Assembly: GCA_044225505.1 (NCBI GenBank) | Contig: JBGAIN010000027.1 | Span: forward strand, 687 to 64,686 | Source: Limisphaerales bacterium | Lineage (GTDB): Bacteria > Verrucomicrobiota > Verrucomicrobiia > Limisphaerales > SIBE01 | Length of the DNA: 64,000 nt | Direction: 5' to 3' | Part shown: piece by piece, positions 5,759-48,585 of the stretch | Position numbering within the stretch: position 1 is the first letter of the stretch | Layout of the letters: each line of letters begins with the position of its first letter | The notes under the pieces: model-generated | Told to the model about the DNA's origin: nothing | Database searches by the model: none | The model's input: the letters and a program-made list of their open reading frames with translations, nothing else | Program-made: the position numbers and the translations under genes

Positions 5759-5887
5759 GTCGCATGACGCCGTGAAGAACATTCATCTCCGCAATCGGAC
5801 GGTCAGCCCTCGAAACTGATGAACCGCGGCGTGAGTAATTGAGTCCACCCGTGAATCTCCGCACTTCGCTGCGCGCTTTCTTCCAGG

Positions 5888-13949: not shown

Positions 13950-15280
13950 ACTCCACGACCATGGACCGACTCACTTGGCTCCGAACGTTCTGGGGTGTGC
14001 GTTTTCGCCAACACTTCGGATTGCTCGGAATGGCAGCGATGGTCTGCGTTGGACCCATCGGCACGTCAGGCGCCGATTGGCCTCAATGGCGTGGACCTGG
14101 TCGTGACGGACACGTTCCGATAAGCGAAGCCGTCCCAACAACCCTGCCCTCCGAGCTCAAGCCGCACTGGCGGATTCCAATCGGGAAAGGCTATGCCTCG
14201 CCGGTGGTGATCGGAGGGAAGTCCGATGGCACCGTTTTCTATAGTGACCTGCAGGATGGTAAAGAAGTCGTGCATGCGCTTCACACCGCTACTGGGGAGG
14301 AGTTGTGGCGGAGCCCCTTGGACGACTCGTTCAAGGATGACTGGGGCCAAGGACCGCGATGCACCTCCTCGGTCGATGGCCCGCTGCTATTTGCTCAATC
14401 CTGCCGAGGATTACTCCGTTGTCTGCAACGCGAGACAGGAACTCCCTTGTGGAGCAAGAATTTTGTCGCCGATTTCGGCGCCGTTTTCATGGGAGAGACG
14501 GGCCCGGCGGCAGGAGCAACGCGGCACGGAAACACGGGATCCCCCGTGGTTGACGGGCAGGGCTTAATTGCCCAAGCGGGCGGTCTCCAAGGCGCCAGCC
14601 TGGTCTGTCTGGACAAGGCGACCGGCGCTTTAGTTTGGAAAGCCGAAGGTGATACGGCGGGCAATGCCGCACCGATCATCGCTACGCTCGGTGGCGTTCG
14701 TCAGGTAATTTCATTTACCGCCTCGGGCCTGATCGGAGTCGATCGAAGCGACGGCAAGCTCCTGTGGCGTGTGCCGCTCAAAACACGTTTGGGCCGTCAC
14801 GTGACGACCCCGGTAGTCGTGGGCAACATGGTTATGGTCGGATCTTATGTGTTCGGCTTGGCGGGAGTTAAGGTGACCAGGGATGGGGCCGACTTCAAAG
14901 CGGAAACGGCCTGGATCAACAAAGAGGCGGCGATCAACTTCGCGTCGCCCGTCGCGGTTGGCGACACCATCTATGGTGTCGGACTCCAGAAGAATATCTA
15001 TTGTGCTCAAGCCCAGACCGGCCAAATCGCGTGGTCGCAAACCGGCTTGCTCTGGGGGAGCGGCGAAAAGGCTTTTGCGGCGTTCCTGGTGATGGGCAAG
15101 AACATCCTGATGCTCTCCGATAGCGGCGAACTGATCCTGTTCGCCGTCAATCCGACCAAATTTGATGCGGTCGCACGCGTCCAGGCTTGTGGTGTCACTT
15201 GGAGTTCGCCGGCGTATTCCGGCGGCGCCCTCTACTTGCGTGACGGCGAAGCGTTGCTTCGCTTGGACCTGATACCCTGA
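13946..15280 (+). CDS. PQQ-like beta-propeller repeat protein, secreted (paralogue type of 8921..10492)
   Basis: WPQWRGPGRDGHV opening motif, repeated blades (ELWRS, PLWSK, LVWKA, LLWRV, IAWSQ), and a C-terminal GGALYLRDGEALLRLDL. ATGA overlap with the GH5 stop. Confidence 0.7.
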   Translation: MNSTTMDRLTWLRTFWGVRFRQHFGLLGMAAMVCVGPIGTSGADWPQWRGPGRDGHVPISEAVPTTLPSELKPHWRIPIGKGYASPVVIGGKSDGTVFYSDLQDGKEVVHALHTATGEELWRSPLDDSFKDDWGQGPRCTSSVDGPLLFAQSCRGLLRCLQRETGTPLWSKNFVADFGAVFMGETGPAAGATRHGNTGSPVVDGQGLIAQAGGLQGASLVCLDKATGALVWKAEGDTAGNAAPIIATLGGVRQVISFTASGLIGVDRSDGKLLWRVPLKTRLGRHVTTPVVVGNMVMVGSYVFGLAGVKVTRDGADFKAETAWINKEAAINFASPVAVGDTIYGVGLQKNIYCAQAQTGQIAWSQTGLLWGSGEKAFAAFLVMGKNILMLSDSGELILFAVNPTKFDAVARVQACGVTWSSPAYSGGALYLRDGEALLRLDLIP

Positions 15281-15357: not shown

Positions 15358-16023
15358 CTACGAAATCACCGCGTTGTGGTTCGTGGTCCTACGGTCAACA
15401 CGGCGCCAGAGAGGCCCGCACAACCAGGCGAGACAAGTGCCAAGGACCAACAGATGAGCGGCAGAGAACTCGGGTATCACGACTATCAGGCCAGAACCTA
15501 AGCTGAGCATTCCATCCAAGACTTCGCCCTTGCCAGTGACGAAAATGCTCTCGGATGCGCCAAGAGTGCGGTACAGCTCCAGGGCCAGTGGATAGCTTCG
15601 ACCCACCTCGCCCGAGAGATTCCTAAGGACGACCGTGGCAAGGACGTTTCCAGAATATGCCTGAACATCGGCTGCGAAAATGTCGACCGTCCCCTTTGCG
15701 GCAGCGAAGCCGTCACCCAGAGCGATCATGGGTCCGGGGCCCTGGACGCCATTGAAAGCCAGAGGCGGAGGAATGACAACCGAGGAGGCGCTTTCCACAC
15801 GGGCCATGGCCGCATCCCAGGCGATTCTAAGACCGTAACTGAACAACCCTGCCTCAGGGACCGGGTCGATCAGAACGGTAACACGCACGTCCGCGCCAGG
15901 CACAACAGAGTAAGATGCTTCCTGGAACCGGACTCTAAAAGTGCCTTGGGCAGCCGAGTGCTGTGTTGCGAGTAACCACAACAGCGTAACGATCAGGAAC
16001 GGTCTCATTTGAAAGTGCCTCAC
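15358..16023 (-). CDS. Small secreted cohesin-like beta-sandwich protein with a PEP-CTERM-like C-terminal sorting signal
   Basis: Signal peptide MRPFLIVTLLWLLATQHSAAQG. The ATG at 16008 is the more likely start, with GAGG 9 nt upstream; GTG 16023 overlaps the giant-gene stop. The roughly 150-aa body has a cohesin-like pattern: SYSVVPGADVRVTVLIDPVPEAGLFSYGLRIAWDAAMARVES...GNVLATVVLRNLSGEVGRSYPLALEL. The C-terminus VIPEF + SAAHLLVLGTCLAWLCGPLW + RRVDRR resembles PEP-CTERM. Confidence 0.5.
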   Translation of the reverse strand: MRHFQMRPFLIVTLLWLLATQHSAAQGTFRVRFQEASYSVVPGADVRVTVLIDPVPEAGLFSYGLRIAWDAAMARVESASSVVIPPPLAFNGVQGPGPMIALGDGFAAAKGTVDIFAADVQAYSGNVLATVVLRNLSGEVGRSYPLALELYRTLGASESIFVTGKGEVLDGMLSLGSGLIVVIPEFSAAHLLVLGTCLAWLCGPLWRRVDRRTTNHNAVIS

Positions 16024-19000
16024 GGTCTTGGATTGGCGACGGTGGGCAAAACTGTCAAATAGTGCTCGCGCTGGCGGGCCAAGTCCAACGCGCCCACCAA
16101 ACCGTCGCGGTCGACATCCAAAGCCGCTTCGTAACCAGGTTCTAGCGATGTCCGGAGGTATGCTTTCTGGAAATAAAAGGTATCGAGGAAATCAACGTCG
16201 CGGTCGCCGTCTAAATCGCCGAAATATCTGAAGAACTCAAATTGCAGAGCGGAGTCCGCCGTCTCCAGACGGTTACCGGCGGCATCCGTGATCGTGTCGG
16301 TGGCCAGGATGGCCACGTAGTTGCCGTCGGCGAGCGAACCGCCCTCCAACGACGGGAAGGTGACAATGAAGATCGGCCCAGGGCCATCGGTAACCCGAAT
16401 GGACTCGGGCCTCAGGATGGCGTTGGTATCCAGATTCCGCAGCACAAAGTCTTTTCCAGACCAGCTTCCCATGACGTTTTCGGTGAATTGGAAGGTCAGA
16501 GAATCGACCATGGACCGTTGGGTGTGGCCTTGGTTGACCTGGATGGCGATTAACTTTGGCCGCACTTGATCCAAGGTGATTCCTCGCTCAACCGTCGTAG
16601 TCCCTGTGGCATTGGTGGTTTGGATCTGAATTCTGTTCAGGCCTTCCTTGAGAGTCACGTTAGAGAACATGAATTGCCCGCCGCTAGTCGTCGTGGCAAC
16701 GCCATCGTCGAACCCGTCCCCGTCCAGATCAAGGAGGACCTGTTGGTTGGGATCGCTCGTTCCCGTGAGGATGACCGGGTTTATGTTAGTGATGGAGTCA
16801 CCGACCACACCCGAGTCGCTCGCGCTGTTCAGATTGAATTCGAGCCCTGGGCCAGCGAGCACCTGAACATTCTCAATGTTCACCAAACTGGCGGCGGCGC
16901 CGAAGCCGATAAGGTCAAAGTAGAGGGCAGCCACGGTCCCCGGTGTGACACCTTTGAGATCGATTGTAACCAGCAGCGAGTGCGTTCCCGCAGGAGTGTT
17001 CCCGGAAGTCGCCACCTCGGAGGTTGTGACCATCTTGCCGAAGAATACCTTTCCAGAGGACTGTATGTTGAGCAGCGCATCTGTCCCTGTCAGTCCGTCA
17101 ATGACTCCGGCGAGCGGACGTCCGGTAGCGGCGTCGAGAAGGGCCACCTCCAACGCGTCTGGAGGAGCCCCTTCACTGCTGGTGAGGTTCAAGAGCGTCA
17201 AGGTGAACCGCAAAGTGCCGCCCTTGTCGGGAATGGTGAAGGTCTGAGCCAGTCGTGCGAGCCAGCGATCGGCTTCACGAAGCACTCCACCGTTCAGTTG
17301 CGGGAACGTGGTGACGGCGGATCCGATCCCAACGTCTCCGGTCCGCGCATCGCTGCGCTCGGAAAACCCGCTTGCGGCACGTGACGGGTCTCTGCCAATG
17401 ACCGGGGCCGTGACGCTGAACGGGCTGATATCTGATTGGGTTAAACCGGCGCGCGCGGTGCGGATGGTGGCACGAGCGGCTGAAGTGACTCGTCTAGGAT
17501 CTGAGCCCACGACTGGGGCTGGCACTTCCAAGACGATCCGTGTCGCGATCCCACTGCCCGAGGTCACAACTGGGGGCGATCCATTGCGTTTTGGATCTGA
17601 GCCAACGGCTGGGGCGTTGACAGCCGTGAGCAATCTCGGGCTGGTCGCGACGAGAGTTTTACCCACGGCTGAGAGGGATACCAGGCTCACCAGTTCCTCA
17701 AACGACGCGTTGGTCAGCATGCTGGACGAATCTGGCCCTGAGACAGTTGGTCTCTCCTCTGAGAGAGTGGTCGATAAGAGACTCACGCCTTCCGTGACAG
17801 CCCCAACCGCAAAGACAACCGTGTTGTTGTTCTCAAGGACCTCCGGCACTTCCTCCAAGCTGTCGAGCTTGACGACGTAGTAGTCTTGCTTGCTCGCGCG
17901 ATCCGTAATTATGCCAGCTGGGATTTCGAAGGTGATCGTGTGAGGTCCAGGCAGGAGATCGACGGCGTCGGAGATGCGTTTGGTGAACACCCTGGCTGTC
18001 AGAGTTGCGGCCAAGGACGATGTCGGTGAAGCGTAGAGTGCTAGTGTAAAGCTAGGGGCAGCACTGCCCACAACGACGTATCGGAGCTCGACTTTATCGC
18101 TCGCACTGGTGCTGGCAGGCGTCCAAGTGACGCTTCGAGCCACCAGGTCCATCACCGCCGTGCCGACGCCTTTACCACCGGTGGCCATGCCGGATGGCAT
18201 CCGACCCGAAGCGATTCGCCGGATCAGAATGCCGCTAAAGTAGGCCCGGTCTCTCAAGTAACTCTGGTAGATCCGGAGTTTCCAGGCATCCGTTCCCTCG
18301 GTGATTGTCTCATTGGGATGTTGCTTGTTGTAGTCCAGGATAGCGTCTTTGTACGCCTGCAGCGTCTCTGGATGATTCACCAATAACCAATCGGAGACGT
18401 TCTCATATGGGATCAACCAATAGTTCTTGCTTGATCCAGGCTGCACCTGCGACCAATCCACCTTGCCCACGCCTTGATCTTCCATGATGAGTTGCTCGAG
18501 AGGTTTGCGGTAAACGAGCATCGCGACTGTCTGATAGGCCTTATAGTCGTAACGCTTGAATTCTTCCTCGTCCTTTTCCCGAATCGACTTTGGATCTTCT
18601 CCGTCTTTTTCGACTGCTGCGCGAATCTTCGCGATGTCATAAACGAAGACTTCATTGGTGCCTTTGAAAGTCGCGAACAGATATTTTCCGGAGCTGTCAA
18701 TGATCAGCTTGTCAGGCCAGGCATAGGGAATCTCGAGGGTGGCGGCGATAAACCCTGAGGTGTCGGACGAGAGAGGATTGACAATGATGCCGATATTGCC
18801 GCCGCGGCCCCGGTTGGGATCGCGTTGCACGTCGGCTACCGAGATCGTTGTTTCCGGACTGCCCAGGTAAGGAGCCGGCTCGCTGGTCGCCTGAAATGTA
18901 TTATTGAAGAGCACGAAGGCCATTTCGTAATCGGACGTGAACACCACGGACTCGGCGGACTCGATATCGAACAGGTAGTCGTTGACCAATTGGAGGCGCG

Positions 19001-22000
19001 CCGCCCATTCCTCCGTGTCATGTGTGCCAAAAGTCTCGGGAGTATTCGGTTCAAACCCGCGGAGATTGGTGGCCTGGGTCAAGGTTGAATTGATGGCATT
19101 CGTTCGGGTATTGATCACTGTGAAGCCAGTCCTTTCAGAACCGCGAACGGCGACGACAACGTAGGGTTTCTCCACATCTTTGCTGGCCGTGACTTCGAAC
19201 GGTTTGGAACCGACCGGGATGACAGCCACCTGGGCCTGGTCCTCGAGATCATAGACAAAGACGTAACCGGGCTGGCGATCCCGGTCATCTCCGGCCCAAG
19301 AGTCCTTGCCCGGGCTGGCAATGTAGAGGTAGCGGCCGTCCGCGGTGATATCCAGTCCAGTCAGCCCAGTCAGTCCGGAGACTTTGCCGGCGACCACGTC
19401 GATGGCCTGAGCGCTGTAGGTCGTTTTGGAACTGGGCGGCCGCAAATCGAATTGGAATACTCTACCAGAAGCCCGATCAGTGGCGTAGCCAACCTGGCGG
19501 TCTGCGTCGACGATAACGTAGTAAGGCTGGCCTCCCGTGACGATGCGATCCATGGCGGTCGTCGACGGGACAAGGTCCACCTCCATCAGCGCGAGAACGC
19601 TGATAATCGAGATCGTGCCTTCGCCAGTGTTAGTCACATAAGCGAACAAGCCGTCCGGTGAAACCGCGACATGAGAGGGGTTACGGCCGACGGGAATTCT
19701 CGCCACCAAGCCGTCCGGAGAGGCGGTCCCATCGGTGTTGGCCGAAGTGATCGCGCCCGGAGCGATGACACTGACCGTGTCCTCGCCCGAGTTGACGACA
19801 AAGACATACGCCGGAGCTGGCGGGACGAAATTCACGGACTGACTGTAAAACGTGCGCGGCTCGGTCGTGTCGTTGCCGCCCGGGGAAGAAGCGCGGGTAT
19901 TGGCGTTCTTCCCCATACGAACCGTGCTATCTGTTCCGAAGCCATACAGGTCGTTCGCGGTCAGGGGCACGATGGCACTGCCATTGGCGCCATCGAGCGC
20001 GACAACTTTGATAATCCTGGAGAGGACGACCGGGGCAGCGCCGCCGGTCAGAGCATCGGGCACTAGCGCGGAGCCGTCAGACCCAAGGCGCAGCGAACTC
20101 TTGGCCCTGCCGGTCGCGAGATCCACTTCGTGAATGATGCCGCTCGCGTCGAGCACGAGGACGTTGGAGCCGTTGCATGCTGCCGCCATGGGCACAGCGA
20201 TGTTGGTGACCACTGTCCGGGTGTCTCCCGTGATCGGGTCGATGCCGATCAACAGACTGCCAGCCAGAGCCCACAGTTCGTGCTGGCGCAAGTCAAACGC
20301 GAGGCCCGGCGCAAATTCATAGCCGACGAAGCGAAGCTCCTTGCGCACGTAGGTGCCGGTCAGATCGAGTTCCGTGATGCGGCGACGATCGAAATCCAAC
20401 AAGTAAAGCGAGGTTTCGCTGGCCGCCAGCCCGTCGACATCACCCAGGCCGCCCGGGACGCTGAAGCTCGAGAGCACCTGCCCATCCGTCGGATGGAGCT
20501 GGAAGATCCGGCGCTTGCTATCAGCCGCATCAAAGTAGTAAAGGTGCTGCTCGTTGTAAGCCAAGAAGACCCTGGAGCGGCTGGTGATCGGGATTGGCGG
20601 GGAAAGCAGCTTCGAGCTGCCCTCATTGACCAGGACGAGGACCCCACGGCTCGAATCCACCGCATAGAGCACTTGACCAGTGACATCCTTCGAGGCAGGT
20701 CGGAGGATCTCGAGGAAATTGTCGCTGGCCGCCGGGGCAAAATCGGTTCCGGTAAGGCGCAGGACCGATCCGTACGGAGCCAGGATTTCGAGGGAAATGG
20801 ATTTCACCTCAGGATCCAAATCATGTTTCACAGCCGCCGGCAGCTCTACGGTGTATTCTTTGTGCTCACCTGGGGCGATCTGAATATTAAAGCGGGTGCT
20901 TTCCATCGCGGTGGGTGTCGCGCGCATGACCGTAATCACCGCACTGCTGTATGGAATCGGCACATTCGCGTCCGCCAGGAGCCCAACGGCCGTGGAGAAG
21001 CCAAACCCAGTTTCTGGATCAACCCGCAAGCGACCATCGGGCGCAGCCGATGCCGCACGCTCACCCAGACAATTCATGGTGACATACGAGCCCACCACGG
21101 AAGTGCCCAGAGCGCACGCATCATTGGTTCGCAGGTCCCAGAGGGGCGGAGACTGGGTGGTTGCGGTCCGGCCATCCGCCTGCACGACCAGTTTGTCGAC
21201 CAGATCCCATCCCGCCTCGAGCACGCCCTGAGCATTATAGAATTGGCCAGCGCGGAACAACCAGAGGACATCCCCTGGCTTGGCTCCGGCCGGTGCCGGA
21301 ACGGTCAGTGCCAAGCCGGTCGAGGCCTGCGGCGTGCCGATGTCGACTTTGAACCCGCCGGAGAAGGCAAAGCCCGTTGGCATTTGCATCGGCAAGCTGG
21401 CCTGAGCCAGCGTGGTGACCTGGACCGTGACATCGCTGCCGAGCGCGCCGGGTGGGACGCTCACGATGAAACCGTCGCTGTTGGCGACAACCCCGCCGTT
21501 GGAGCTGACGATGGTGGGACCGACGTTAGCCTGGCTGATTTGCATGGGAACCACCGCGCTTCGTCCACCGTAGACTACCGTAACCCAGAACCGGCCTGGA
21601 GCTGTGGCTGTCAGCAAGCCATTGGAAGTGATGGCGCCGAGGCTTGCACTGGATAGGTAATACTCAGCGCCTGAGGCGGCGCTCGATCGGTCCACCACTC
21701 CCCCGTCAGACAATCGTTCGCGGACAACGAACTGGCGAGTAGCGCCCACGACCATCGTATAGGCAAGCGGGTAGAACTGCAAAGTGGGATCGGCTCCGCC
21801 AGAACCGACCGAGATCGGAGTTGCCGCTGTGAGATTCCCAAACCTGACCACGATCGTGGCCGTTCCCTGGGATACCCCAAACACGAGCCCGTCGCTCCCA
21901 ACCACGGCAACTTTCGGATTATTGGAACTGAACTGAACGGCATTTTGCGGTATCGCCACAAGCGAACCATCGGGCTGTTCTCCGGCCAACTGCAGCGCAA

Positions 22001-25000
22001 AGGAGCCGCCGACTTCGATCTGGGCGTCGCGCTCCAGGATGCGCAGATTCACGAACTGGGCGGCACCAATGTTGACCGTGACTGTGGTATCGTCTGAGAA
22101 GAAGAGCCCATCGTCCGCTCGAAACGTCAGTTTGGCTGTCCCGACAAAGCCGGCATCGGGCTTGAACAGAAGGGTGTGTCCATCTCCGCCCAAAGCGATT
22201 GTGCCGTGCTCGAACGCGGACATACCATAAGCCAGCAGGTTCCCATCCAGATCTGAGCTGAGGCTGTTGAGATCGATGGTAACGACGATGTCCTCATAAC
22301 CTGGGACCGTCGCACCGACAGTCGCTGGCGCCCGGTCCGCAACGAAGCCCGTGCTGTTCTGAAGCAGTTGTCGATCTTCGACCGTCACGCGGCCATCTCG
22401 ATTGGCGTCCGCTCCTCGGTTATATCCAGCCTGTCCCTGTTGAGTGCCAAGGGATATAGCCAACGACGCTGCATCTGCCCCGGTAATAGAACGGTCCCCA
22501 TCCGCGTCGCCGGCGAGGTAGACTTCAAGGGTGTAATTCCCAGCCGCTTGAGCGTTCGCTCCAGTGACCTCAATCACGTAGGCCGCTTGAGAAGAGCTTG
22601 CAGTAAGTGGGAATAGCGCAATACCGTGACTTGCATCTGAGGTTGAGGCAGCCGGGGTCTGCCCGTCGAGAGTGACAGGCGCGGGAATGAATCCAGATAA
22701 GCCGACGATCTCGATTCCGAGCGTGACGAAGTCGGTGTTTGACGTGGCACATTCCGAGTCGCTGAGGAGGAACGCGAATCGGTCGGTTTGTCCGGCAGCA
22801 AGCGAATCATTCTTGAGCACGCCCAGGAACTGCCGTGAACTCCCGAGGAACACCTGAATCGGTTCGGAACCGAGATAGCGCCCCTGCACGTCGTAGCGGA
22901 TGAGCACGCTTGGTTCCGTGGCGGCGGTGGAGACTATGCTGGTCAGACGTGCGGAGTCGCTCTGACTATAGCCATAGAATTGACGCTGACTCGCAGCAAA
23001 ATCCGTGACGGAGGCAAGGGCGCCTGCGCTCGAGTAAGTGTAAAGAACCTGACTGCCGTCCGGAGCGGTGATGCGGCTAATACGTCCTTGAGCATCCCGT
23101 CGGAATTCGATGCGTTCACCAGTGGTGGCGATCACTCCATTTTCACTCCAAAGCAACTGTTGTCCTGAGGCGCTGACCATCCGTTGTAACCCGCCGTCGA
23201 GCAGATAATCGTAGCGGGTGCCGTCGTCCGCAGTCAGGGTCAAGTCGTAACCACCGAAGTCACTGTTTGCCATGTTGTAGGGCAGCCCACTCCCGGCCTG
23301 ATAAAAGGCACCCTGGCTCTCGACCAGCAGGGCCTCAGCGGTCGTCATCGTGTAACCGACTCCAGCGTCAGCTTGCCAGCCGGGGCGGTAAACCGTGGTG
23401 TTACCGAGTTGGGTCGCCACGGGGGCAAAGGTGAAGCCGACTCTTCGGCCGTCCGGGAGATTCACGTAGGCGCGCGTGCCCTGGAGGAAGGGGCTAAACA
23501 CGCCCCAAGCTTCGCTGCCGGTGGCACGGAGATCGGTGGCGAACTGGATATCGACAGCGCCAAGGCTCCAACCCGGCCCGAAGCTACCGGATTCACCTTC
23601 GTTCAGACTGGAGTAAAGGCGGCGGATCTGCACTTGCACTCCTCCCAAATTGGCCACGAGATCCGTGACCGCCGTTTGATACGCCGCAGGTTTGGTCGCG
23701 GAGTCGATTTCAATCACCCGAGTCAGCCGGGTAGAGCGACCGCTCATGTCGGTGGCGCTCAGCACCAACTCGTAAGCGCCGTTCGGGAGCAGACCAGGAT
23801 CCAGGTCGGCTTGAACCTCGAGCAATGCTGGATCCACCAGGCTCGTTCTGGTTGTCAGGGTCGCGGGAACCCCGCCACCCAAAGGCGCCAACCGGAGCGT
23901 CCATTCATCCAGATTGCTCTCAGCGATCCGGCCTCGGATGGTGACCGCAGCCGAGATGACGGCATGGTCCGCGAGCGAGTCGAAGGCGAGCACTGGGGCA
24001 CTCGGATCGGCACTGTCGCGCACCTTAATCGCGGTGGTCGCCCGGCCGGTATATCCATCCAGGTCGGTGGCGGTGGCGATAACTTGATACTGCCCCGGCT
24101 GAGAGGGTGTGAATCGGACCTGGCCAAGCGGATCCAGTTCCTGTCTCTGACCGTTAATCGAGAGTGAGACGGAGACAATGTCCGCGATGCCGGAAGCGGC
24201 AACCTGCACCCAGAACGTCTGGCCGATGGACGCGGGGAAGCTTGGAGTCGACTCGATCCGAACTTCGGGCAGAATCGGCTGATTTGAGACCACAAGGCGG
24301 AAGGTGCGGTAGGCGGTCCATTGGCCATCCGAGACGGTCACGCGCAGATCGTAGTTACCCAACTGCACGCCGGAGGGAGCCCAGGTCAGCAAACCACTGC
24401 TGCTATCAAACTTGGCGCCGTTCGGCAATCCGGTGATCGAGTAGCTGAGCGTTGTGCCAGCATCGGGATCCGAGCCTGTGGCCTTGAGGGTAAACGTCTG
24501 ACCAGACAATAGGAGATGGTCACTGATATAGGCGATTTCAGGAGCAAGATTGACGTTGAGCACTTCGATCTTGGTCTGATACGACGCGGCAGCGCCGGAG
24601 GGATCCTTCACGCCAAAAGTCAGGCTATGCGTGCCGGCCTGGTCATTTCCAGGAGTCCACGCGAAGTGGTTGCTTTCTGGATCAAAGGAGGCGCCAACGG
24701 GAAGGTCGCCGACCACATAAACTGCGATGGCATCGCCGTCCGGGTCACTCGCTGAGATCGTGAATGACAGGGCAGTCCCTTCCAGAGTCAACAACCCAGG
24801 CAGCGGAACGATTCGCGGCGCCTGGTTCACATTTTGCACGGTGATGGCGATCGTCTCTCTCTTGCTGCGGTTGCCATCCGAAACTTCGAAAGTGACGGGG
24901 TAAACTCCAGCCTGGCTAAGACTCGGTTGCCAAGCAAAGGAGCCGGTCGTCGAGTTGAGAGCTGCGCCGTTCGGCAGGGCAACGGCTCGGTAAGTGAGGA

Positions 25001-37000: not shown

Positions 37001-40000
37001 TCCCGACCTGGCTTTGCTCAAGGAAAGTAAGTTTGAAGTGCGTGGCATCGACCCGTGCGACGGAGGCAACCGCGATTGGCCCGGTGGGGCCCGTCAACTC
37101 CACATCGGCCGGCGAGAAAGAGGTCGCCAAAATCGCCTTCTTGAATTCGAGCACTAACGCAGAGAAGGGTTGTTCCACCACTCCGCTGAGGCTGGTCGAA
37201 ATGATGCGAGGACCGTTGCTTTCGATCGTGAAGGTTCCCTGATAAAAGTCGGTCGATTCTCCTGTGATCCCGTTTCCGTCCTGGTCCATGAGTGTCCCAC
37301 CCAGATCGCTCACGGCGGGGCCCAGTTTGAATGTATACATGCCGTTGGCAGTCTGAGGAGCGAACTGAAAGCGATACGTTTGGGCACTGACGGCTGTGAT
37401 GCCTGTGATACCAATCGCACCCTTGGGACCGGTCAGAGCCACATCGCTGAGCTGCAGGCTCGAGGCGAGGATGGTCTCGCTGAAAGTCACTTCGATGGAA
37501 TTGACCGGAGCGGCAGCGGCGCCAACTGGACCATGGGAGATCACGGTCGGTCCAACAGCATCCAACTGGAAGTTGGAGATGTAGCCATCCTCTATTTCGC
37601 CCGCCGTGGCGTTTTGGTTCTGATCCATCATCCGTCCCGCCAAATCCAGGATTTCGGGACCGACCCTTAGGCGATAGATGCCTTCCGCTGTCAGGCGATC
37701 GAAGGTAATGCGGTAGGTCCTCCCATCGAGTTGGCTGACACCCGTGACATTGACGAGGCCTTGCGGTCCCATGAGTTGAATATCAGCAGGCCCGAAGCTG
37801 CCGGGCTGGATCGGGCCGGAGAATGTCAGATCGAGGTGGTCCAGGACACCGAGCACTGCCCCAGTTGGGACCTGGCCAACGATGCGCAAGGGCTGGAGAC
37901 TGAGAGTGAAATCGTTTTGGTACCGGTCGGCCGGGTCTCCTCCGTTGGCCCCGTCCTGGTTCTGGTCCATCGGGTTTCCAGCCAGATCAGCGATGCGTGG
38001 TCCGACTTGGACAACGTACTCGCGATTCGTAATCAAAGGATCGAAGCGGACGCGGAACTCGATATCGGAAGTCTGAGTAATACCAATGACACTGGTGGCC
38101 GGCACCAGGGAACTTGGGACCGCGGCAACCACCAGGCCGCCGTTGGCGGTATCGCCCACGAGATCAAAGTCCGCGGCATTCCACTCTGTCTTGGCTCCTG
38201 GGGCCGCGAACAACTCGACCTGAGCCCCTCCTCCATGCTCGTAGTAGATAAGTCGGAGCGGGTAGTCACCCGCCGCGGCGAACTGGAAAGTGGCCAGCGT
38301 GGTGGCCGAACCGCGGTCCGTCGTATAGGAGGTGACATTTGTTCCCACCTGCAAGGCAAAACCGTCGTCACTGTTCACCCCAAAAGTCCATTCTCCGGCT
38401 GTTGGGATGGAAATAGCAGCGGTAGCCAGCACAACAAAGTTATCAACATCCTGGCCCACGGTCTGGCCTGGGAAGGGTCGATTTCCGGTGGCATAGATAC
38501 CCTCGCCGGTACCGAGGTAATTGATGATGGGCGTCACCTCGCCGAGCACCTGGCTAAAATAATTAGCAGCGGCAATGACCGTCTCTGCGGTCGAGATGTC
38601 GCCCACTCCGCCGATGGCTCTGAAGTAGAGGGCCCAGAATCCAGGAACGGGCGAAGTCCCGGAACCGAGATGCTGCAGGATTTGGATATCAGCGGCAGTG
38701 AAGGTGGAACTGGCAATTGGCTCGGAGAATTGTAGAGCCAGTTCGTCAACCGCAGACGAAAGCGCTCCAGTAGGCGTCTGAGCGACGATCCGTGGTCCTT
38801 TGGTGTCAAAGGCAAATGTCGTGGAATAAACATCGCCCGGCGCTTCTCCGCCAATCCCATTCCGGTTTTGGTCGAGGGTGAAACCGCCGATGTTGGTGAT
38901 GATCGGTCCAATCTTCACCTGATAAATGCCATCGGTCGTGATCAGCGATAAGAAGTTGATTCGGAATGTGGTATTGGTAAGAACAACCGGATCTGCAGGT
39001 GCGATCGTCTGCGGGCCTGTGATGACCACATCGGCCGTGGTGAACGTAGCGGCATCGATCGGGTCCGAGAATGTGACGTCGACATAGGAAACGTTGCGTG
39101 GGATCGAGCCTGCGGCCACGAGCGCCTGAATCTCAGCGGAGTTGAGTGCGCGGTTGGTAATGCTGATCTCATCGACCAATCCGGCGAAGTTGGCGCCAGA
39201 ACAGCAAGATTCTCCACCGATCCGGGTGCCGCCCGTCGTGCCCGCGTATCCCGGATCGACGCCTCCCGATGCCTTGAGTTCGCCGTTGACGTAGATGCGC
39301 GCCGTGGCGCCATCGCACGTTGCCACGACGTTGAACCACGTCCCGACGGTCGCAGTCACTCCGGAACTGATGATGGCAACGCTGCCGCCTGCCTGGCGGA
39401 CATTAACGCCTATGATTCCATCCTGGACGACCAGGCCCCAATCGCGGTAGTCAGACGTGCCCCCCACGATGGTATGGCGCCCCGTCAGAGTTGCCGAAGC
39501 ATTGATCCACGCGGCCAAGGTCCATTGGGAGCCAGGGCTCCATCCGCCCAGGTCAACGTAATCATCCACGCCGTCTAACTGAAAGGCTTGTCCGACCTTT
39601 CCGGTCGCGTAGGTCGCGCCGTTCTGGAGGGTCCCATGGTGGGTGGTGCCAGTGTCATTCGCATTGCCCTCGGCGCGCCACGAGTTCACCGTATCGGTCA
39701 GGCCGCCAGGAGTAGCCGATAGGACATAGGCGCCGAGCTGGAGTGCGGGCAACGATGTCAGCCAACTGCCGTAATCGACCCAGTCACTGACTTTTTGCCC
39801 GGCGGGATTTTCATGAACGCGGCCGTCGGCACCGGATGGGTCGTTCGGACCGGCGGCGTCATTCCACCAATTCCCTGTTGCCACCACATGCGTGAAGTCA
39901 CCCGTGCCCTCATAACTAACTGCAGTGGTAAGGCCACTAAAGACACAACCGGAGAGAGTCGCATTCTGACCCGCAACTACGGCCACGCCGCTGCTTGCTG

Positions 40001-41354: not shown

Positions 41355-44300
41355 ACGGCAGCTGCGGATCGTGGGAGAGGACCCTCGATTCTGACCGAGG
41401 GCGTGTATCCCTGGCCGTGGCCGTTGTAATGAATGTTGCCGGCGTAACGAACATCGACATGGTCAAGCACGCTGTCTTTGCTCGTCTGGGTGAAACGCAG
41501 ATAGGCCCAATTACCACCTGCCGCGGGCGTGTCGCCATCGTGCCAGGTGTCCCCGAGGGCCGTGTCATCCCGACGCGAGGTAAAGACAATGGGGCGAGCC
41601 AGGCTGCCCTGGGCATCAAGAGTGCCGCTCACTTCGATCGCCTGCTCGTTGGAAAGCTTAAAAACGACCCCCGGATCCAAGGTGAGTTTCACGCCCTCAG
41701 CGATGGTGAAGTTGCCGTCCAGGACGTAAGGCATGGTGATGATGTTAAGACGACGGTCGCTGGCGAGTGTGCCTCCGTCCAAGACAAAGGCGTCGCCAGG
41801 ATTGTTGACCGAGGCGAGACCGGAAAGCTTCGGATCGGAGTCAAGCGTCATCCAGAACGCGTATCCCCTGGCCGAGGATTCGACTCGCACATTCTCTAAG
41901 GTAGGAGCGCCCCCTTCCAGGCGGATCCCATGCCAATCTGGCTGATAGACGCGTAGGTGGGAGGCCCTGGCCTTGGTGTTTTTGAATCTCAACGCCCATT
42001 GATACCCTTGTCCATGTTCGTGATAGTAGACATTTCCAGCGTAGCGAATCTCGACGTAATCCAAGACGGAAGCGTCTGATCCGGCGTTGAGGAACACCGC
42101 CTGCCAGTCGCCAGAGATCGGGGCGTCTCCCGCGCCATTGTCATTGGAATCTCCGCCTACCGCATCATCTCGCCAGGACGTTAGAACAATGGGTTTGTTT
42201 TCCGTGCCAATGGCTTCCAGAGTGCCCTCGACGATCAACTGCTCTCCATTGCTGAACTTGAGCACCTGCCCCGCCGCAATCACAAGCTTCTTGCCAGCAG
42301 GAACTGTGAGGTCACCGTAAAGCTCGATGGGGAGGCCTCCTCCCCAGAGGGTGCGGTCTCCGGGCAACTCGCCTCCATCGAGGGCATACCGATCCCCGCT
42401 GGCATCCGTGGCCGACAGGTTGGTTAGCACTGGAGTAGCGGTAAGAGTCCCGTAGAAAGCATCATGCCGGGCGCGAACGACAGCAACGTTAGTGAGCGTG
42501 GGTGCCCCCGAGACAATCCGGACAGCGGTGGAATCCGAGTCACTCACGATGACATCGGTCATCGTGACCTCAGCGCCAGTGATCCGGACAGCGGGGCGAT
42601 ATCCCCCCCCATGACCCGGATGGTAAAGATTACCGGCATAACGAACCTGGACATTTTGCAGGACTGAGCCATCGGCACTGTCATTCAGATCGATTCCTTG
42701 CCACTCACCTCCCGCCGTGCCTTCGGATGGATCTCGGTAGCAGGTAAAAATGATTGGGGCGTCGGCAGTGCCAATGGCATTGAGCTTGCCGTTCACGCTT
42801 AAGACTGTGCCTCGGTAGAACCGGAAGGTGTGTCCCGCCAAAATAGTTAGCGTCACCCCCGCGGCCACTGTGATGTGTCCCTCCAATTGCACTGGCACTC
42901 CGCCAAAGTCCCACGTCCAGTCGGTCGAGATGGTGTTATCTCCTCCCTCAAGGAAGTAGGCTCCATCCAAACTCGTCCCGGAAGAGGAGAGATTACGCAA
43001 TACGGGGGTCGCAGTAGGCTTCCCAGCAAAACCTTGGTAACGAGCCCGGAGGACAGAGACTCGGACGAGTTGGGGGGAACCGCCCTCGATCTGAATACCG
43101 CGAGCATCGGCATCCCTCACCAATACATCCTTGAATGTCGCGCTGCTATTGATGCTAAGGCTGGGGAGATAACCACCGCCATGACCTGGGTGGAAAGTAT
43201 TTCCGGCAAAACGCACTTCCACGAACGCCAGGATGGACTGGTCAGATCCAGGGTTGAAGGCAAGCGCCCGCCACTCGCCAGCCCCCCCTTCACTCGGACC
43301 ATCTGCGTTGGTATCGCCGCCGGCCGAATCATCATTGTGGGCGGTGAAGATGATGGGAGCCGCCGCTGTTCCTATCGCAGTGAGGGTCCCGTCGACAATA
43401 ATGGTCACACCCCGGTGGGACTTGATGATCTCGCCTTCCGCAATCTTCACCGTTCCTCCCGTGGCGATCGTCATATGGCCACCTAAACGGACAGGTTGGG
43501 TATTGACGATCGTGAGGGTGATTCCTTTTTCGACAATCACATCCCCCTGCACATAGATCGGAAGTCCCCCCATGAACCAAGTCCGATCGCTCGTTAGCGA
43601 GCCACCGCGGAGCACATATTGGTTGCCGCCGGTTTGGCTCGCGCCGAGTTGGACACAGTCTGGATTGGCCATGAGCGCTCCGTTGAAAGCTTCATGCCGG
43701 GCGCGGACCACTTGGACCCGACTGAACTTCGGCGAGCCAGAATTGATGGAGACGCCGCTGGAGTCAACGTCCCGGATCAAAACATCGGACAGAGCCGCCG
43801 TCGTGCCACTGAGACGGATCGCCGGTGTATACCCGCCGCCATGGCCTGGGTGGTAGAGATTGCCCGCATAGCGGATTTCTGCAAATTGGACAACGGATGC
43901 GTCGGAACCGTCGTTAAAGACGAGTCCTGTCCATTCGCCCGCTGCTCCGACCGTATCGCCGTTCGCGTTCGAGTCCCCTCCAGCAGAATCATCGTTGGCA
44001 GAGGTAAAAACTATCGGCTCAGCCGCCGTGCCGATAGCCTGCAAGGTTCCGTCCACAATGATCAACTGGCTGCCGGTTAGTTTAATAACCTGACCTGGCA
44101 CGATCGTCAGAGTGACACCGGAGGGGATAGTAACGGCACTGGCGAGATGGAGAGGAAGATTCCCGGTATCCCAAGTGAGGTTCCCGGCCACCGCGTCTCC
44201 TTCCAATCGGTAGCCGTTCAAGGCTGTGCCAGAGATGGTGACGTCGGTAATGACGGGAGTCGCCATCATCAGGCCAGCCAAGCCCGCATCGCGGGCCGTA

Positions 44301-44794
44301 TCAATCTTGACCCGGGTAAGTTTCGGGGAATCGGAGCTAATTCGAATTCCGATCCAATCCGAGTTTCGAACGGTCACATCAATGAGGCTGATACTGCTGC
44401 TGATCGCGATGGCAACCTGATAGCCTCCACCGTGACCCGGATGATAGATATTCCCGGCATATCGAACCTCCACATTCTGCATCACGGAAAGGCCAGCCCC
44501 CGCGCCGAAAACCAAGCCTCTCCAATCTCCGGCTGCCACAGTCGCGGTGCCCTCGCCTGAAACATCTTCCCCAATGGAGTCATCGCGTGAAGCGGTAAAA
44601 ACAATTGGAGTCGCAGTTGTGCCTCGCGCATCTAAAACACCGTTCACCAACATCTGCGCGCCGCGATCAAATTTGAGAACTGCTCCCGCGCTAATCGTCA
44701 ACCGGACACCGGCGTCAATAGTTAGATCCCCGGTAATGTGGATTGTGCCAGCCCAGGTGGCGTCGCTGGAGATCGTGCCGTTGACAGTCGTAGC
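39720..44794 (-). repeat. Eight tandem ~190-220-aa modules (parallel beta-helix-like) spanning the frame break, capped by a PbH1/CASH-like beta-helix
   Basis: Conserved blocks per module: LTI.PG.V.K...I.V.GTL.A.GT...PIVFTS.RDD..GGD.N.NG....GDW.G...N.GSDASV......(V/I)RYAGN.Y.(P/H)GHG(G/Q)GY. The RY(A/G)GN Arg lies at fused residues 315, 512, 732, 922, 1121, 1320, 1525 and 1725. One anchor was checked: the R315 codon is at 44462-44464. Confidence 0.75.
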
Positions 44795-45406
44795 GCTTGC
44801 GGCGGAAGTAGCGAGCCGGGAAAGGGCAGAGATCCGCGATCCATTGCTGGTGCGGTTATCCGAAAGCACGACACCGGTCAAGGCGGCGTTCTGACTAATC
44901 GGGGGCGCATTGGCCGTGGTCAACGTCTGAACAAGAAAAGTCCGGAGGAGCGGGAGCGGCTCCCCAATCCCAGTGTCGCTGTCAATGGTGTCGGAAGCCA
45001 CGGCCGCCACGCCGAATCCCAAATTACCGGGTAGCGCAGCGCCCATTGATCTTGTTTCCAACTGGCCCTCTGAACGGACGGAACTGACCTCACTTTCACT
45101 GCGGGCAGCTGTCAGGACCGGGGATGAGGCCAGGGCGTCCGGCTCACCCTCTAAAGGGACGAGGGACTCCAGATCAGGAATCAAGGGCAGAGTTTCTCCC
45201 TGAGTCCCGGCAGCGGTGGCTTCCACAGGCTGGATTAGAACGAGCCCTTCCTGGCTCAGATTACCAACCCCGATCGGGTTCATGAGCTCGGCCGCGGTCC
45301 CGACATCGGGAAGCGGCTGCGCGCCGACCGCGAGCGCGGCCTCTGCGGAAAGCAGCAGGCGCGATTCTAGAGCCTCGAGTTGGAAGTTGGTCTGTGAAAC
45401 ACTCAT
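41096..45406 (-). CDS. N-terminal part of the giant surface protein (1,436-codon ORF; authentic sequence to about residue 1342, then out-of-frame tail)
   Basis: Starts MSVSQTNFQLEALESRLLLSAEA. Six copies of a roughly 200-aa module end in (V/I)RYAGN.Y.PGHGGGY. After ...GQGYTPSVRIEG (codon at 41381-41383) the sequence becomes low-complexity (PLPRSAAAVCSGAIRRGSGS...), while the -1 frame continues the module (SSPTIRSCRVLWSDSQGIGIGS...). Confidence 0.85.
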   Translation of the reverse strand: MSVSQTNFQLEALESRLLLSAEAALAVGAQPLPDVGTAAELMNPIGVGNLSQEGLVLIQPVEATAAGTQGETLPLIPDLESLVPLEGEPDALASSPVLTAARSESEVSSVRSEGQLETRSMGAALPGNLGFGVAAVASDTIDSDTGIGEPLPLLRTFLVQTLTTANAPPISQNAALTGVVLSDNRTSNGSRISALSRLATSAASATTVNGTISSDATWAGTIHITGDLTIDAGVRLTISAGAVLKFDRGAQMLVNGVLDARGTTATPIVFTASRDDSIGEDVSGEGTATVAAGDWRGLVFGAGAGLSVMQNVEVRYAGNIYHPGHGGGYQVAIAISSSISLIDVTVRNSDWIGIRISSDSPKLTRVKIDTARDAGLAGLMMATPVITDVTISGTALNGYRLEGDAVAGNLTWDTGNLPLHLASAVTIPSGVTLTIVPGQVIKLTGSQLIIVDGTLQAIGTAAEPIVFTSANDDSAGGDSNANGDTVGAAGEWTGLVFNDGSDASVVQFAEIRYAGNLYHPGHGGGYTPAIRLSGTTAALSDVLIRDVDSSGVSINSGSPKFSRVQVVRARHEAFNGALMANPDCVQLGASQTGGNQYVLRGGSLTSDRTWFMGGLPIYVQGDVIVEKGITLTIVNTQPVRLGGHMTIATGGTVKIAEGEIIKSHRGVTIIVDGTLTAIGTAAAPIIFTAHNDDSAGGDTNADGPSEGGAGEWRALAFNPGSDQSILAFVEVRFAGNTFHPGHGGGYLPSLSINSSATFKDVLVRDADARGIQIEGGSPQLVRVSVLRARYQGFAGKPTATPVLRNLSSSGTSLDGAYFLEGGDNTISTDWTWDFGGVPVQLEGHITVAAGVTLTILAGHTFRFYRGTVLSVNGKLNAIGTADAPIIFTCYRDPSEGTAGGEWQGIDLNDSADGSVLQNVQVRYAGNLYHPGHGGGYRPAVRITGAEVTMTDVIVSDSDSTAVRIVSGAPTLTNVAVVRARHDAFYGTLTATPVLTNLSATDASGDRYALDGGELPGDRTLWGGGLPIELYGDLTVPAGKKLVIAAGQVLKFSNGEQLIVEGTLEAIGTENKPIVLTSWRDDAVGGDSNDNGAGDAPISGDWQAVFLNAGSDASVLDYVEIRYAGNVYYHEHGQGYQWALRFKNTKARASHLRVYQPDWHGIRLEGGAPTLENVRVESSARGYAFWMTLDSDPKLSGLASVNNPGDAFVLDGGTLASDRRLNIITMPYVLDGNFTIAEGVKLTLDPGVVFKLSNEQAIEVSGTLDAQGSLARPIVFTSRRDDTALGDTWHDGDTPAAGGNWAYLRFTQTSKDSVLDHVDVRYAGNIHYNGHGQGYTPSVRIEGPLPRSAAAVCSGAIRRGSGSAAIRWVVHRVSKKSRFAGRGTTRFTYSTSWPLRNLSACLLQATARATALSWLEAACLVTGRGTAAVCRSTWPMR
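41379..41386 (-). other. Frame-break point joining the 1,436-aa and 8,444-aa ORFs (-1 shift, equivalent to one missing base, at a GAGGGT/CCC run)
   Basis: Minus-strand sequence is ATC GAG GGT|CC TCT CCC ACG. Frame A gives IEGPLPR (junk after this point). Re-reading one base gives IEG-SSPTIRSCRVLWSD, which matches the position-equivalent segment of the other modules (for example GYTPAIRLSGTTAALSDVLIRDVDSSGVSI). Confidence 0.7.
45347..45406 (-). other. N-terminal LE.R.LL(S/A)A-type leader motif of the giant protein (no classical Sec h-region)
   Basis: MSVSQTNFQLEALESRLLLSAEAALAVG. Motifs of the form LE-x-R-x-LL-S/A near the N-terminus recur in large secreted planctomycetal/PVC proteins. This is from my recollection; the function is unknown. 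Confidence 0.4.
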
Positions 45407-47684: not shown

Positions 47685-47727
47685 ACGATTAATTGAATTC
47701 GGTCGGATTGGGTTTGTATTTAGAACG

Positions 47728-48516: not shown

Positions 48517-48585
48517 AGATGCCAGCTCCCATTTCCGTTGGTTTTCCGATGCGACTGCGACCCACCATCCCGTTTGCATCGGTGG

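What the first reader, a model, noticed from the sequence alone, without database searches (positions are those of the whole stretch)
16020..45406. A ~29.4-kb single gene (~9,795 codons after frame repair) with an unusually heterogeneous adhesin-like architecture
Reading N to C, the architecture is:
- LE.R.LLSA leader
- 8 x ~200-aa beta-helix-like modules
- PbH1/CASH cap
- LamG
- SbsA-type Ig domains, one of them carrying a nested PA14
- 15 x CARDB
- PPC + IPT
- a ~650-aa region I cannot assign
- NHL-like propeller
- 9 x cadherin-like units
- Ig domains
- YD fragment
- PPC + internal dockerin
- cadherin-like domain
- 2 x Big_2
- ZU5-like stretch
- two propeller-like regions
- CARDB
- three short APxVGxDPxR repeats
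- Ig domains
- terminal dockerin

Several carbohydrate-binding folds (LamG, PA14, CARDB), propellers and two dockerins in one chain suggest a long, modular surface fibre. It takes up nearly half of the window.
Basis: partly seen in the sequence, partly recalled or inferred. Interest (0 to 1): 0.7.

Follow-up and report, generated by a model that had tools for sequence, protein, structure and literature searches.

The report
Giant adhesin gene with cohesin partner
The 29.4-kb reading frame is real and encodes a giant, modular surface protein of a type already catalogued in Verrucomicrobia-like bacteria; the new point is that the small gene next to it encodes a membrane-anchored protein with a cohesin fold, the likely docking site for the giant protein's two dockerin modules.

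Summary
On the minus strand, 16020-45406 is one coding sequence of 9,795 codons, broken by a single missing base at about 41382 inside a repeat module. Nearly all the by-eye domain calls were reproduced:
- 8 beta-helix modules
- LamG
- Big_5 with a nested PA14
- 15 CARDB
- 9+1 cadherin-like units
- a YD fragment
- propellers
- 2 dockerins
- 3 APxVGxDPxR repeats

The IPT and ZU5 calls were not reproduced.

The N-terminal "LE.R.LLSA" leader is the NCBIfam LEPR-XLL domain, so the gene is a new member of a known class of giant PVC proteins. Its architecture is not an oddity.

The added finding concerns the next gene, 11 nt downstream (15358-16008). It encodes a 216-aa protein with a signal peptide, a domain whose AlphaFold model matches only cohesins in the PDB (top 46 hits), and a PEP-CTERM-like tail. 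This family has at least 541 clusters and Pfam does not recognise it as cohesin. In 10 lineages it sits next to LEPR-XLL giants, and in 3 lineages next to dockerin-bearing proteins.

Best explanation: a surface fibre with no membrane anchor of its own, tethered by cohesin-dockerin binding to an exosortase-type anchor protein. Binding is inferred, not shown. I could not determine whether the frameshift is real.

The parts
16020..45406 (-). Giant gene: 9,795 codons once one missing base is restored. It is annotated as two ORFs, 41096-45406 and 16020-41354.
41378..41386 (-). Frame break: one base is missing in the run GAGGGTCC, inside beta-helix module 6 of 8. It is not a canonical slippery heptamer.
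45320..45385 (-). LEPR-XLL N-terminal domain (residues 8-29, QLEALESRLLLSA).
   Evidence: NCBIfam NF012209, E=1.1e-5, 24.9 bits against a cut-off of 17
40068..44869 (-). Eight ~200-aa right-handed beta-helix modules (residues 180-1780). A PbH1-like cap follows, down to about 39768.
   Evidence: self-HMM; Pfam Beta_helix; homologues carry PF13229 and PF28492
39126..39575 (-). Laminin_G_3 (LamG / concanavalin-like lectin) domain.
   Evidence: Pfam E=2.3e-21
36954..39152 (-). Big_5 (SbsA-type Ig) array. One unit is interrupted by a PA14 domain at 38178-38447.
30888..36878 (-). Fifteen tandem CARDB domains (residues 2844-4840).
   Evidence: Pfam CARDB E=3e-54; self-HMM finds 15 copies
28728..30857 (-). 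That region models as Cna/Cnm-adhesin-type beta-sandwiches with a helical insert, and includes DUF7619.
   Evidence: PPC E=0.011; DUF7619 E=2e-10; AF2 pLDDT 73 and Foldseek matches
27582..28250 (-). Beta-propeller (residues 5720-5942). The propeller type is not resolved.
   Evidence: PDB PkwA WD40 E=1e-4; weak Pfam SGL
24285..26861 (-). Nine cadherin-like / He_PIG / Big_9 units (residues 6183-7041).
22848..23660 (-). Short RHS/YD fragment (residues 7250-7520). It is not a full shell.
   Evidence: RHS_repeat E=3e-7; weak DUF6531
22356..22514 (-). Internal dockerin (residues 7632-7684) with two Ca-binding loops, DADGDRSITGAD and DANRDGRVTVED.
   Evidence: Pfam Dockerin_1, 25.8 bits against a GA of 22.9
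18528..22334 (-). A cadherin-like unit, two Big_2-type Ig domains, an unassigned ~265 aa, a weak propeller, and a YVTN/lactonase-type propeller.
16239..18152 (-). A CARDB-like unit, three APxVGxDPxR repeats, and Big_13/Big_5-type Ig domains.
16068..16223 (-). C-terminal dockerin (residues 9729-9780) with loops DLDGDRDVDFLD and DVDRDGLVGALD.
   Evidence: Pfam Dockerin_1 above GA; sequence inspected
15358..16008 (-). Partner gene, whose start codon lies 11 nt after the giant gene's stop. Its 216-aa product has a signal peptide, a cohesin-fold domain, and a PEP-CTERM-like tail (IPEF, a hydrophobic helix, then RRVDRR).

Best explanation
The locus encodes a two-part surface system of a Verrucomicrobiota-like (PVC) bacterium.

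Part 1 is a 9,795-residue LEPR-XLL giant protein with no membrane anchor of its own. At its N-terminal end it carries eight beta-helix modules plus LamG and PA14 lectin-type domains. A long stalk follows, made of about 40 Ig-like units (CARDB, Big_5, cadherin-like), propellers and Cna-type sandwiches. It has two calcium-type dockerins, one internal and one at the extreme C-terminus.

Part 2 is a 216-residue protein encoded 11 nt downstream. It has a signal peptide, a single cohesin-fold domain and a PEP-CTERM-type (exosortase-substrate) tail.

Proposed mechanism: the small protein is fixed in or on the envelope by its PEP-CTERM tail. Its cohesin domain binds the giant protein's dockerin or dockerins. 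The fibre is thereby held by its C-terminal end, and the beta-helix and lectin end projects outward to bind polysaccharide, particles or other cells.

Shown here: the gene structure, the domain content, the cohesin fold of the model, the PEP-CTERM signature of the family, and the conserved gene neighbourhood.

Inferred: export, envelope location, the cohesin-dockerin contact itself, the ligand, and the role of the LEPR-XLL leader.
For: - One continuous coding sequence, with domains confirmed by HMMs.
- LEPR-XLL hit above its cut-off.
- No transmembrane segment in the giant protein.
- Two Dockerin_1 hits above the gathering score, each with duplicated D-x-D-x-D...D loops.
- AF2 model of the partner protein: pLDDT 68.7, pTM 0.61. 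Foldseek against the PDB gives cohesin modules for all of the top 46 hits, with best E=1.4e-8 and TM-score up to 0.71. The only weak sequence hits also point to cohesin.
- PEP-CTERM HMMs hit 40 of 82 family members, and 3-5 of the 9 closest members.
- Synteny with LEPR-type giants: the cohesin-like gene abuts an ORF with a LEPR-type leader in the window and in L005/9, L006-8 (a 13,009-aa gene), L010, L011, L012, L014, L015/16, L019 and L020.
- Synteny with dockerins: wherever a neighbour's C-terminal or dockerin region is visible (window, L013, L017/18), a dockerin lies 0-1.3 kb from the cohesin-like domain. L013's dockerin protein has no LEPR leader.
- The partner gene is conserved between strains, with 2 synonymous and 0 non-synonymous changes.
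Against: - No binding data exist, and no complex prediction was possible.
- The cohesin assignment rests on fold only. Pfam Cohesin scores E=0.14, below threshold.
- The model is of moderate confidence.
- The window's copy of the anchor motif reads PEF, not PEP, and it misses the PEP-CTERM HMMs.
- No exosortase gene was seen in the window.
- There are two dockerins but only one cohesin.
- For most related giants the C-terminus lies off the contig, so a dockerin is confirmed in only three lineages.
- The frame break could mean the gene is inactive in this strain.
Confidence: 0.55

Rival explanations
1. The cohesin-fold protein works with the LEPR-XLL N-terminus rather than the dockerins. It might act as a secretion, processing or retention partner that recognises the leader. 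The dockerins would then bind something else, or only bind calcium.
For: In 9 of 10 lineages the small gene lies immediately upstream of the giant gene's 5' end, next to the LEPR leader. LEPR adjacency is documented in more lineages than dockerin adjacency.
Against: The only known ligand class of cohesin folds is dockerin (established knowledge of cellulosome biology). In the window the small gene abuts the dockerin end of the giant gene, not the LEPR end. In L013 the neighbouring dockerin protein has no LEPR leader. In L017/18 the cohesin-like domain follows a dockerin-bearing C-terminus.
Confidence: 0.2
2. The frameshift is genuine, and in this strain the giant gene is a very recent pseudogene or a switched-off variant. 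Only a 1,436-aa N-terminal fragment would be made. This rival concerns the gene's state in this strain and is compatible with the ancestral function proposed above.
For: The window shows 0 indels against about 26 kb of aligned independent short-read contigs from closely related strains, so the assembly is not indel-prone. All other genes scanned in the window look intact. Frame breaks also occur in the beta-helix part of relatives: L009, and L015/16, which are two independent assemblies.
Against: The break is a single base in a G-run, a typical sequencing or polishing error. There are no further stops in 25.4 kb downstream, although only 0.7-3.1 would be expected at strain-level divergence, so this is weak evidence. 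No independent contig covers the site: L001 stops 200 nt short, the JGI scan found 0 hits, and no near-identical protein fragment was found.
Confidence: 0.4
3. The locus is a cellulosome-like enzyme scaffold for polysaccharide breakdown. The beta-helix modules would be lyases or hydrolases, working with the neighbouring GH5 cellulase.
For: A GH5 cellulase lies 1.4 kb away. Beta-helix folds include polysaccharide lyases. LamG and PA14 are carbohydrate-binding.
Against: There is only one cohesin-like gene in the window, and the dockerins occur only inside the giant protein. The GH5 and other neighbours carry no dockerin. No catalytic family was detected in 9,795 residues. The GH5 gene is on the opposite strand and is not conserved beside related giants.
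Confidence: 0.1
4. The protein is an Rhs/teneurin-type toxin-delivery protein.
For: An RHS_repeat hit, a weak DUF6531 hit, and a match to a bacterial teneurin-like protein.
Against: The YD region is only about 270 aa, far short of a shell. The teneurin match covers Ig-type domains (residues 7798-7981). There is no C-terminal toxin domain: the C-terminus is Ig domains plus a dockerin.
Confidence: 0.03

Closest known systems
LEPR-XLL domain-containing giant proteins (NCBIfam NF012209, 'LEPR-8K') of Planctomycetota and Verrucomicrobiota
   Same: An N-terminal LExRxLLSA leader at residues 8-29 that scores above the model's cut-off. Very large size. A mosaic of beta-helix, Ig-like, cadherin-like and dockerin modules.
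   Different: Nothing essential. This is a new member with its own domain order. The function of the leader is undescribed in the literature I could search.
Single-cohesin cell-surface anchoring proteins of cellulosomes (C. thermocellum OlpA/OlpC; R. flavefaciens ScaE, which is sortase-anchored, from my own knowledge)
   Same: A small protein with one cohesin fold plus a C-terminal sorting or anchor signal, which tethers a very large dockerin-ending partner. The best Foldseek hits include Coh-OlpA (3ul4) and Coh-OlpC (4dh2).
   Different: The anchor is PEP-CTERM (exosortase type, diderm bacteria), not SLH or LPXTG. Sequence similarity to Pfam Cohesin is below threshold. The cargo is an adhesin-like fibre, not an enzyme scaffold.
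'Planctosome' hypothesis: non-cellulosomal cohesin/dockerin proteins in freshwater Planctomycetes (PMC6461901)
   Same: Cohesin-dockerin pairing proposed for a PVC bacterium outside cellulose degradation.
   Different: That model uses Pfam-recognisable cohesins, a lamin-tail-domain anchor and peptidase cargo. Here the cohesin is cryptic, the anchor is PEP-CTERM and the cargo is a LEPR-XLL giant.
Dockerin-type giant proteins of Omnitrophota (bioRxiv 10.1101/2023.11.21.568195)
   Same: Giant PVC-supergroup proteins rich in dockerin/EF-hand modules and proposed to mediate attachment. Type II secretion-like pilin genes lie upstream of the giant genes, as they do in this window.
   Different: Those proteins are over 30,000 aa, have many dockerin and thrombospondin repeats, and have their own C-terminal transmembrane anchor. 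No partner cohesin gene was described.
Giant repetitive T1SS adhesins (LapA, SiiE, MpIBP)
   Same: A long Ig-like stalk with ligand-binding domains at one end and retention at the cell surface by the other.
   Different: No RTX repeats or T1SS signal were detected. Retention here would be by dockerin-cohesin binding rather than by an outer-membrane plug.

Membership tests
LEPR-XLL domain-containing protein (NF012209) | N-terminal LEPR-XLL motif scoring above the curated cut-off | tested here: met
   Residues 8-29, E=1.1e-5, 24.9 bits against a cut-off of 17. The same leader is present in relatives.
Dockerin type I (PF00404) | HMM score above the gathering threshold | tested here: met
   Two hits of 25.8 bits against a GA of 22.9, at residues 7632-7684 and 9730-9777.
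Dockerin type I (PF00404) | Duplicated 12-residue Ca-binding loop followed by a helix | tested here: met
   Both modules have two D/N-x-D/N-x-D...D loops on inspection of the sequence.
Dockerin type I (PF00404) | Calcium-dependent binding to a cohesin | not testable with these tools
   Needs a biochemical assay or a complex prediction.
Cohesin (PF00963) | Sequence HMM above the gathering threshold | tested here: not met
   E=0.14, 12.8 bits against 24.1. Only 4 of 82 family members give weak hits, best 0.015. PDB profile hits to cohesins have E of 0.3-0.8.
Cohesin (PF00963) | Nine-stranded beta-sandwich cohesin fold | tested here: met
   The AF2 model has nine strands. The Foldseek top 46 PDB hits are all cohesins, with E down to 1.4e-8. 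The model is of moderate confidence (pLDDT 68.7).
Cohesin (PF00963) | Binds a dockerin | not testable with these tools
   Supported only indirectly by gene neighbourhood.
PEP-CTERM / exosortase substrates (PF07589, TIGR02595) | C-terminal PEP motif, then a hydrophobic helix, then a basic tail | tested here: inconclusive
   At family level, 40 of 82 members hit PF07589 (best 1.6e-7) and 3-5 of the 9 closest hit TIGR02595 or NF038129. The window's copy reads IPEF, a helix, then RRVDRR, and misses the HMMs.
PEP-CTERM / exosortase substrates (PF07589, TIGR02595) | An exosortase gene in the same genome | not testable with these tools
   None among the window ORFs scanned. The rest of the genome is not available.
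Cellulosome | A scaffoldin with several cohesins, plus dockerin-bearing enzymes | tested here: not met
   The window holds one cohesin-like gene, and the dockerins occur only in the giant protein. No catalytic domain was found in the giant protein.
RTX / T1SS giant adhesins | RTX nonapeptide repeats and a C-terminal T1SS signal | tested here: not met
   No such Pfam hits in overlapping tiles. The C-terminus is a dockerin.
Rhs / teneurin YD-shell toxins | A complete YD shell with an encapsulated C-terminal toxin | tested here: not met
   One RHS_repeat hit within about 270 aa, and no toxin domain.

The most novel reading that the evidence does not exclude
The 216-aa neighbour represents a large, sequence-divergent cohesin family of at least 541 clusters at 50% identity, mostly ~200-aa PEP-CTERM proteins. 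This family would be the missing partner for the many 'orphan' dockerins of PVC bacteria. It would define a Gram-negative, exosortase-linked counterpart of the sortase- or SLH-anchored cohesins of Firmicutes, dedicated to holding LEPR-XLL giant adhesins on the cell.
Probability: 0.4. Interest if true: 0.7.

Novelty: new variant of a known kind. Interest (0 to 1): 0.5.

Why it matters
Dockerin modules are abundant in Planctomycetota, Verrucomicrobiota and some archaea that make no cellulosome. Their partners and role are described as unknown in the literature I could read (PMC5244752, which cites Peer et al. 2009).

A conserved pairing of gene neighbours would give that question a concrete, testable answer: a cryptic cohesin with a PEP-CTERM tail beside a dockerin-ending giant protein. 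It would also suggest how a 1-MDa protein without a membrane anchor stays on a diderm cell. And it would assign a cargo-holding role to one family of exosortase substrates, whose functions are mostly unknown.

The giant gene alone is an ordinary, if well-preserved, example of its class.

Tried and rejected
**Independent check of the frameshift failed by every route**
- Exact look-up of ORF A found nothing.
- A homologue search with a 501-aa stretch spanning the junction returned only hits of 45% identity or less.
- A junction pattern scan of JGI metagenomes gave 0 hits.
- The nearest Logan contig ends 200 nt before the site.

**Programmed frameshifting rejected as unsupported**
- The site C_GAG_GGU is not an X_XXY_YYZ heptamer.
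- The breaks in relatives go in different directions: -1 in L009, +1 in L015.

**Repeat collapse or mis-assembly rejected**
- The gene has no exact repeat of 20 nt or more.

**Sequence-level proof of cohesin homology not obtained**
- Pfam, NCBIfam and PDB profile searches, with 9- and 82-sequence alignments, gave only sub-threshold cohesin hits.

**Upstream genes not counted as part of the system**
- The upstream sigma, anti-sigma, pilin-like and FG-GAP genes are not conserved beside related giants, so I did not treat them as part of the system.

**Other searches**
- Rfam and tRNA scans of the window found nothing.
- Promoter and terminator scans were uninformative.
- The C-terminus of the intact 13,009-aa relative (L006) could not be fetched.
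- Peer et al. 2009 is not held in the paper library.
Full report
**Observation**

The minus strand carries two long ORFs, 41096-45406 (1,436 aa, starting MSVSQTNFQLEALESRLLLSA) and 16020-41354 (8,444 aa). They are offset by one base. Translating the junction in three frames shows frame 0 reading ...GYTPSVRIEG and the next frame continuing SSPTIRSCRVLWSDSQGIGIG. The join falls in register with the other repeat modules: IRLEGGAPTLENVRV, IRMEGASSPTLEGITV. The coding sequence was therefore continuous until very recently, or still is. The other five frames hold 120-450 stops per 9,795 codons, so the open frame is not chance.

**Is the frameshift real?**

I could not decide.
- Four short-read (Logan) contigs from closely related strains align to the window at 99.1-99.8% identity with no gap over 26.5 kb. 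The window is therefore not indel-prone. However, the contig that enters the gene stops 200 nt before the site.
- An exact look-up, a homologue search across the junction and a JGI pattern scan gave no independent copy.
- The site is a short G-run and not a slippery heptamer.
- If ORF B had drifted neutrally since the strains diverged, only 0.7-3.1 new stops would be expected. The absence of stops therefore says only that a real break would be recent.
- Frame breaks also occur in the beta-helix region of relatives: L009 has two within 150 nt, and L015/L016 are two independent assemblies with the same break. I leave this unexplained.

**Architecture**

| Feature | Residues |
|---|---|
| Eight beta-helix modules | 180-1780 |
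| Laminin_G_3 | 1945-2094 |
| Big_5 units, one split around PA14 | 2086-2818 |
| Fifteen CARDB | 2844-4840 |
| Nine cadherin-like units, plus one | 6183-7041; 7705-7780 |
| RHS repeat | 7438-7471 |
| Dockerins, both above the gathering score | 7632-7684; 9729-9780 |
| Big_2-type Ig domains (Big_2 hit near 7822; PDB teneurin-like match 7798-7981) | 7798-7981 |
| Propeller (weak) | 5720-5942 |
| Propeller (strong: PDB 1l0q E=5e-16, Lactonase E=3e-7) | from 8533 |
| Three APxVGxDPxR repeats | 9265, 9297, 9334 |

- PPC is sub-threshold (E=0.011).
- IPT and ZU5 were not reproduced.
Its AlphaFold model (pLDDT 73) is three beta-sandwiches with a helical insert. The best PDB matches are collagen-binding adhesin domains (Cnm, CNA), integrin leg domains, antigen I/II and Gram-positive pilins. 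This is more adhesin-type stalk, with no enzyme.
- The leader is the NCBIfam LEPR-XLL domain (NF012209, above its cut-off).
- The protein has no convincing transmembrane segment.

**Assembly**

The protein repeats are old. At the DNA level the gene has no exact repeat of 20 nt or more, and its best internal similarity is 71-81% over fewer than 90 nt.

**The neighbouring gene**

Eleven nucleotides after the giant gene's stop codon starts a 216-aa ORF (15358-16008, minus strand). It has a signal peptide, a beta-rich domain and the tail IPEFSAAHLLVLGTCLAWLCGPLWRRVDRR.
- Pfam gives one hit, Cohesin, at a non-significant E=0.14.
- An AlphaFold model built from nine homologues has pLDDT 68.7, pTM 0.61 and nine strands plus a C-terminal helix.
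- A Foldseek search of the PDB with that model returned cohesin modules for all of the top 46 hits. The best are 5lxv_C (E=1.4e-8), 4uyp, 5nrm, 6kgf, 3ul4 and 1ohz, with TM-scores up to 0.71.
- Profile searches of PDB sequences again put cohesins among the few weak hits.
- An exhaustive profile search finds 541 clusters at E<=1e-3 and 335 at E<=1e-10. Most are 190-270 aa.
- Of 82 aligned members, 40 hit the Pfam PEP-CTERM model and only 4 hit Cohesin weakly.
- The closest nine members hit NCBIfam PEP-CTERM models in 3-5 cases. The window's own copy, with PEF in place of PEP, does not.
- Larger family members carry the same domain at the N-terminus of Ig-rich stalks.

**Neighbourhood conservation**

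All five related loci returned by the scan of species-representative genomes come from Verrucomicrobiota MAGs. The window's own genome was not among them, and the rest of the 541-cluster family has no taxonomy in the library. The cohesin-like gene directly precedes an ORF with a LEPR-type leader in:
- L005/L009
- L006-8 (LEARLYLSA leader; a 13,009-aa gene)
- L010, L011, L012 and L014
- L015/16
- L019 and L020

In the window the order is reversed, with the small gene after the giant gene's dockerin end.

An HMM built from the window's two dockerins finds a dockerin in an L013 ORF that lies 1.2 kb from the cohesin-like gene. That ORF has the same Ig-plus-FRYFGDxDGDRDVDF module as the window's C-terminus and has no LEPR leader. 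The HMM also finds a dockerin at the C-terminus of the large ORF that directly precedes a protein with an N-terminal cohesin-like domain in L017/18. The window has only one cohesin-like gene, and its only dockerins are those of the giant protein.

**Mechanism**

I propose that the small protein is a PEP-CTERM-anchored cohesin that tethers the anchorless giant protein by its C-terminal dockerin, and perhaps also by its internal one. The beta-helix, LamG and PA14 end would then be exposed distally as the binding end.

Shown:
- the gene structure
- the domains
- the fold of the model
- the family's PEP-CTERM signature
- synteny

Inferred:
- export
- location
- the protein-protein contact
- the ligand

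Rivals:
- The partner recognises the LEPR leader instead of the dockerins (0.2).
- The gene is freshly inactivated in this strain (0.4; compatible with the ancestral function).
- It is a cellulosome-like enzyme scaffold (0.1). No enzymes with dockerins were found, and the GH5 neighbour is on the other strand and is not conserved.
- It is an Rhs-type toxin (0.03).

**Comparison with what is known, and novelty**

- The giant gene is a member of the catalogued LEPR-XLL class. Proteins of 5-15 thousand residues are documented in Verrucomicrobia and Planctomycetes (bioRxiv 10.1101/2023.11.21.568195).
- Non-cellulosomal cohesin-dockerin use in PVC bacteria has been hypothesised before, as the 'planctosome' (PMC6461901). 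That model used recognisable cohesins, a different anchor and peptidase cargo.
- Full-text searches found no paper combining cohesin, dockerin and PEP-CTERM. The one paper combining exosortase and dockerin does not link them.
- The closest functional analogue is the single-cohesin anchoring protein of cellulosomes. Here it has an exosortase-type anchor instead of a sortase or SLH anchor.

Overall interest is 0.5.

Noticed in passing
window 45936-51304 (-): Directly upstream of the giant gene, on the same strand, lie five genes: an ECF sigma factor (TIGR02989-like), a FecR anti-sigma factor with a PA14 domain, two prepilin-type N-methyl / DUF1559-like genes, and an FG-GAP + UnbV_ASPIC protein. 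A 529-nt gap follows. The set is not conserved beside related giants. A type II secretion-like locus upstream of giant genes has been reported in Omnitrophota.
   Followed up: partly
L009 ~13380-13500; L015 ~5830 and L016 ~8560: Related giant genes also have frame breaks inside the beta-helix module region. One L009 break lies in a G-run at the same module position as the window's break. L015 and L016 are two independent assemblies with the same break.
   Followed up: partly
window 12840-15280 (+): A GH5 cellulase and a PQQ_2 beta-propeller protein run convergent with the cohesin-like gene. Neither has a dockerin.
   Followed up: partly
window 15400-15480 (-), partner residues 177-201: The anchor motif of the window's partner protein reads PEF rather than PEP. 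PEF-CTERM is a named archaeosortase signal (PMC5244752). Relatives have PEP, PET or PEV.
   Followed up: partly
window 1781-5552: A MerR + B12-binding (CarH-like) regulator at 4596-5552 lies near an amine-oxidase / phytoene-desaturase-like flavoprotein at 1781-3376 and an aldehyde dehydrogenase at 264-1784. This may be a light-regulated carotenoid-type cluster.
   Followed up: no
window 52416-53960 (-) and 54237-56936 (-): A second ECF sigma factor with a ~340-aa C-terminal extension, and a full-length ADOP duplicated permease (TIGR03434, E=4e-293).
   Followed up: no
window 16023-17117 (-), compared with L003: Between strains, the last 365 codons of the giant gene differ by 5 non-synonymous and 0 synonymous changes. 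The first 1,275 codons show 14 synonymous and 5 non-synonymous changes. The numbers are too small to interpret.
   Followed up: partly
L017 9911-15421 / L018 8505-14015: In this lineage the cohesin-like domain is fused to the N-terminus of an 1,837-aa protein with beta-helix and PATR repeats, instead of standing alone with a PEP-CTERM tail.
   Followed up: partly
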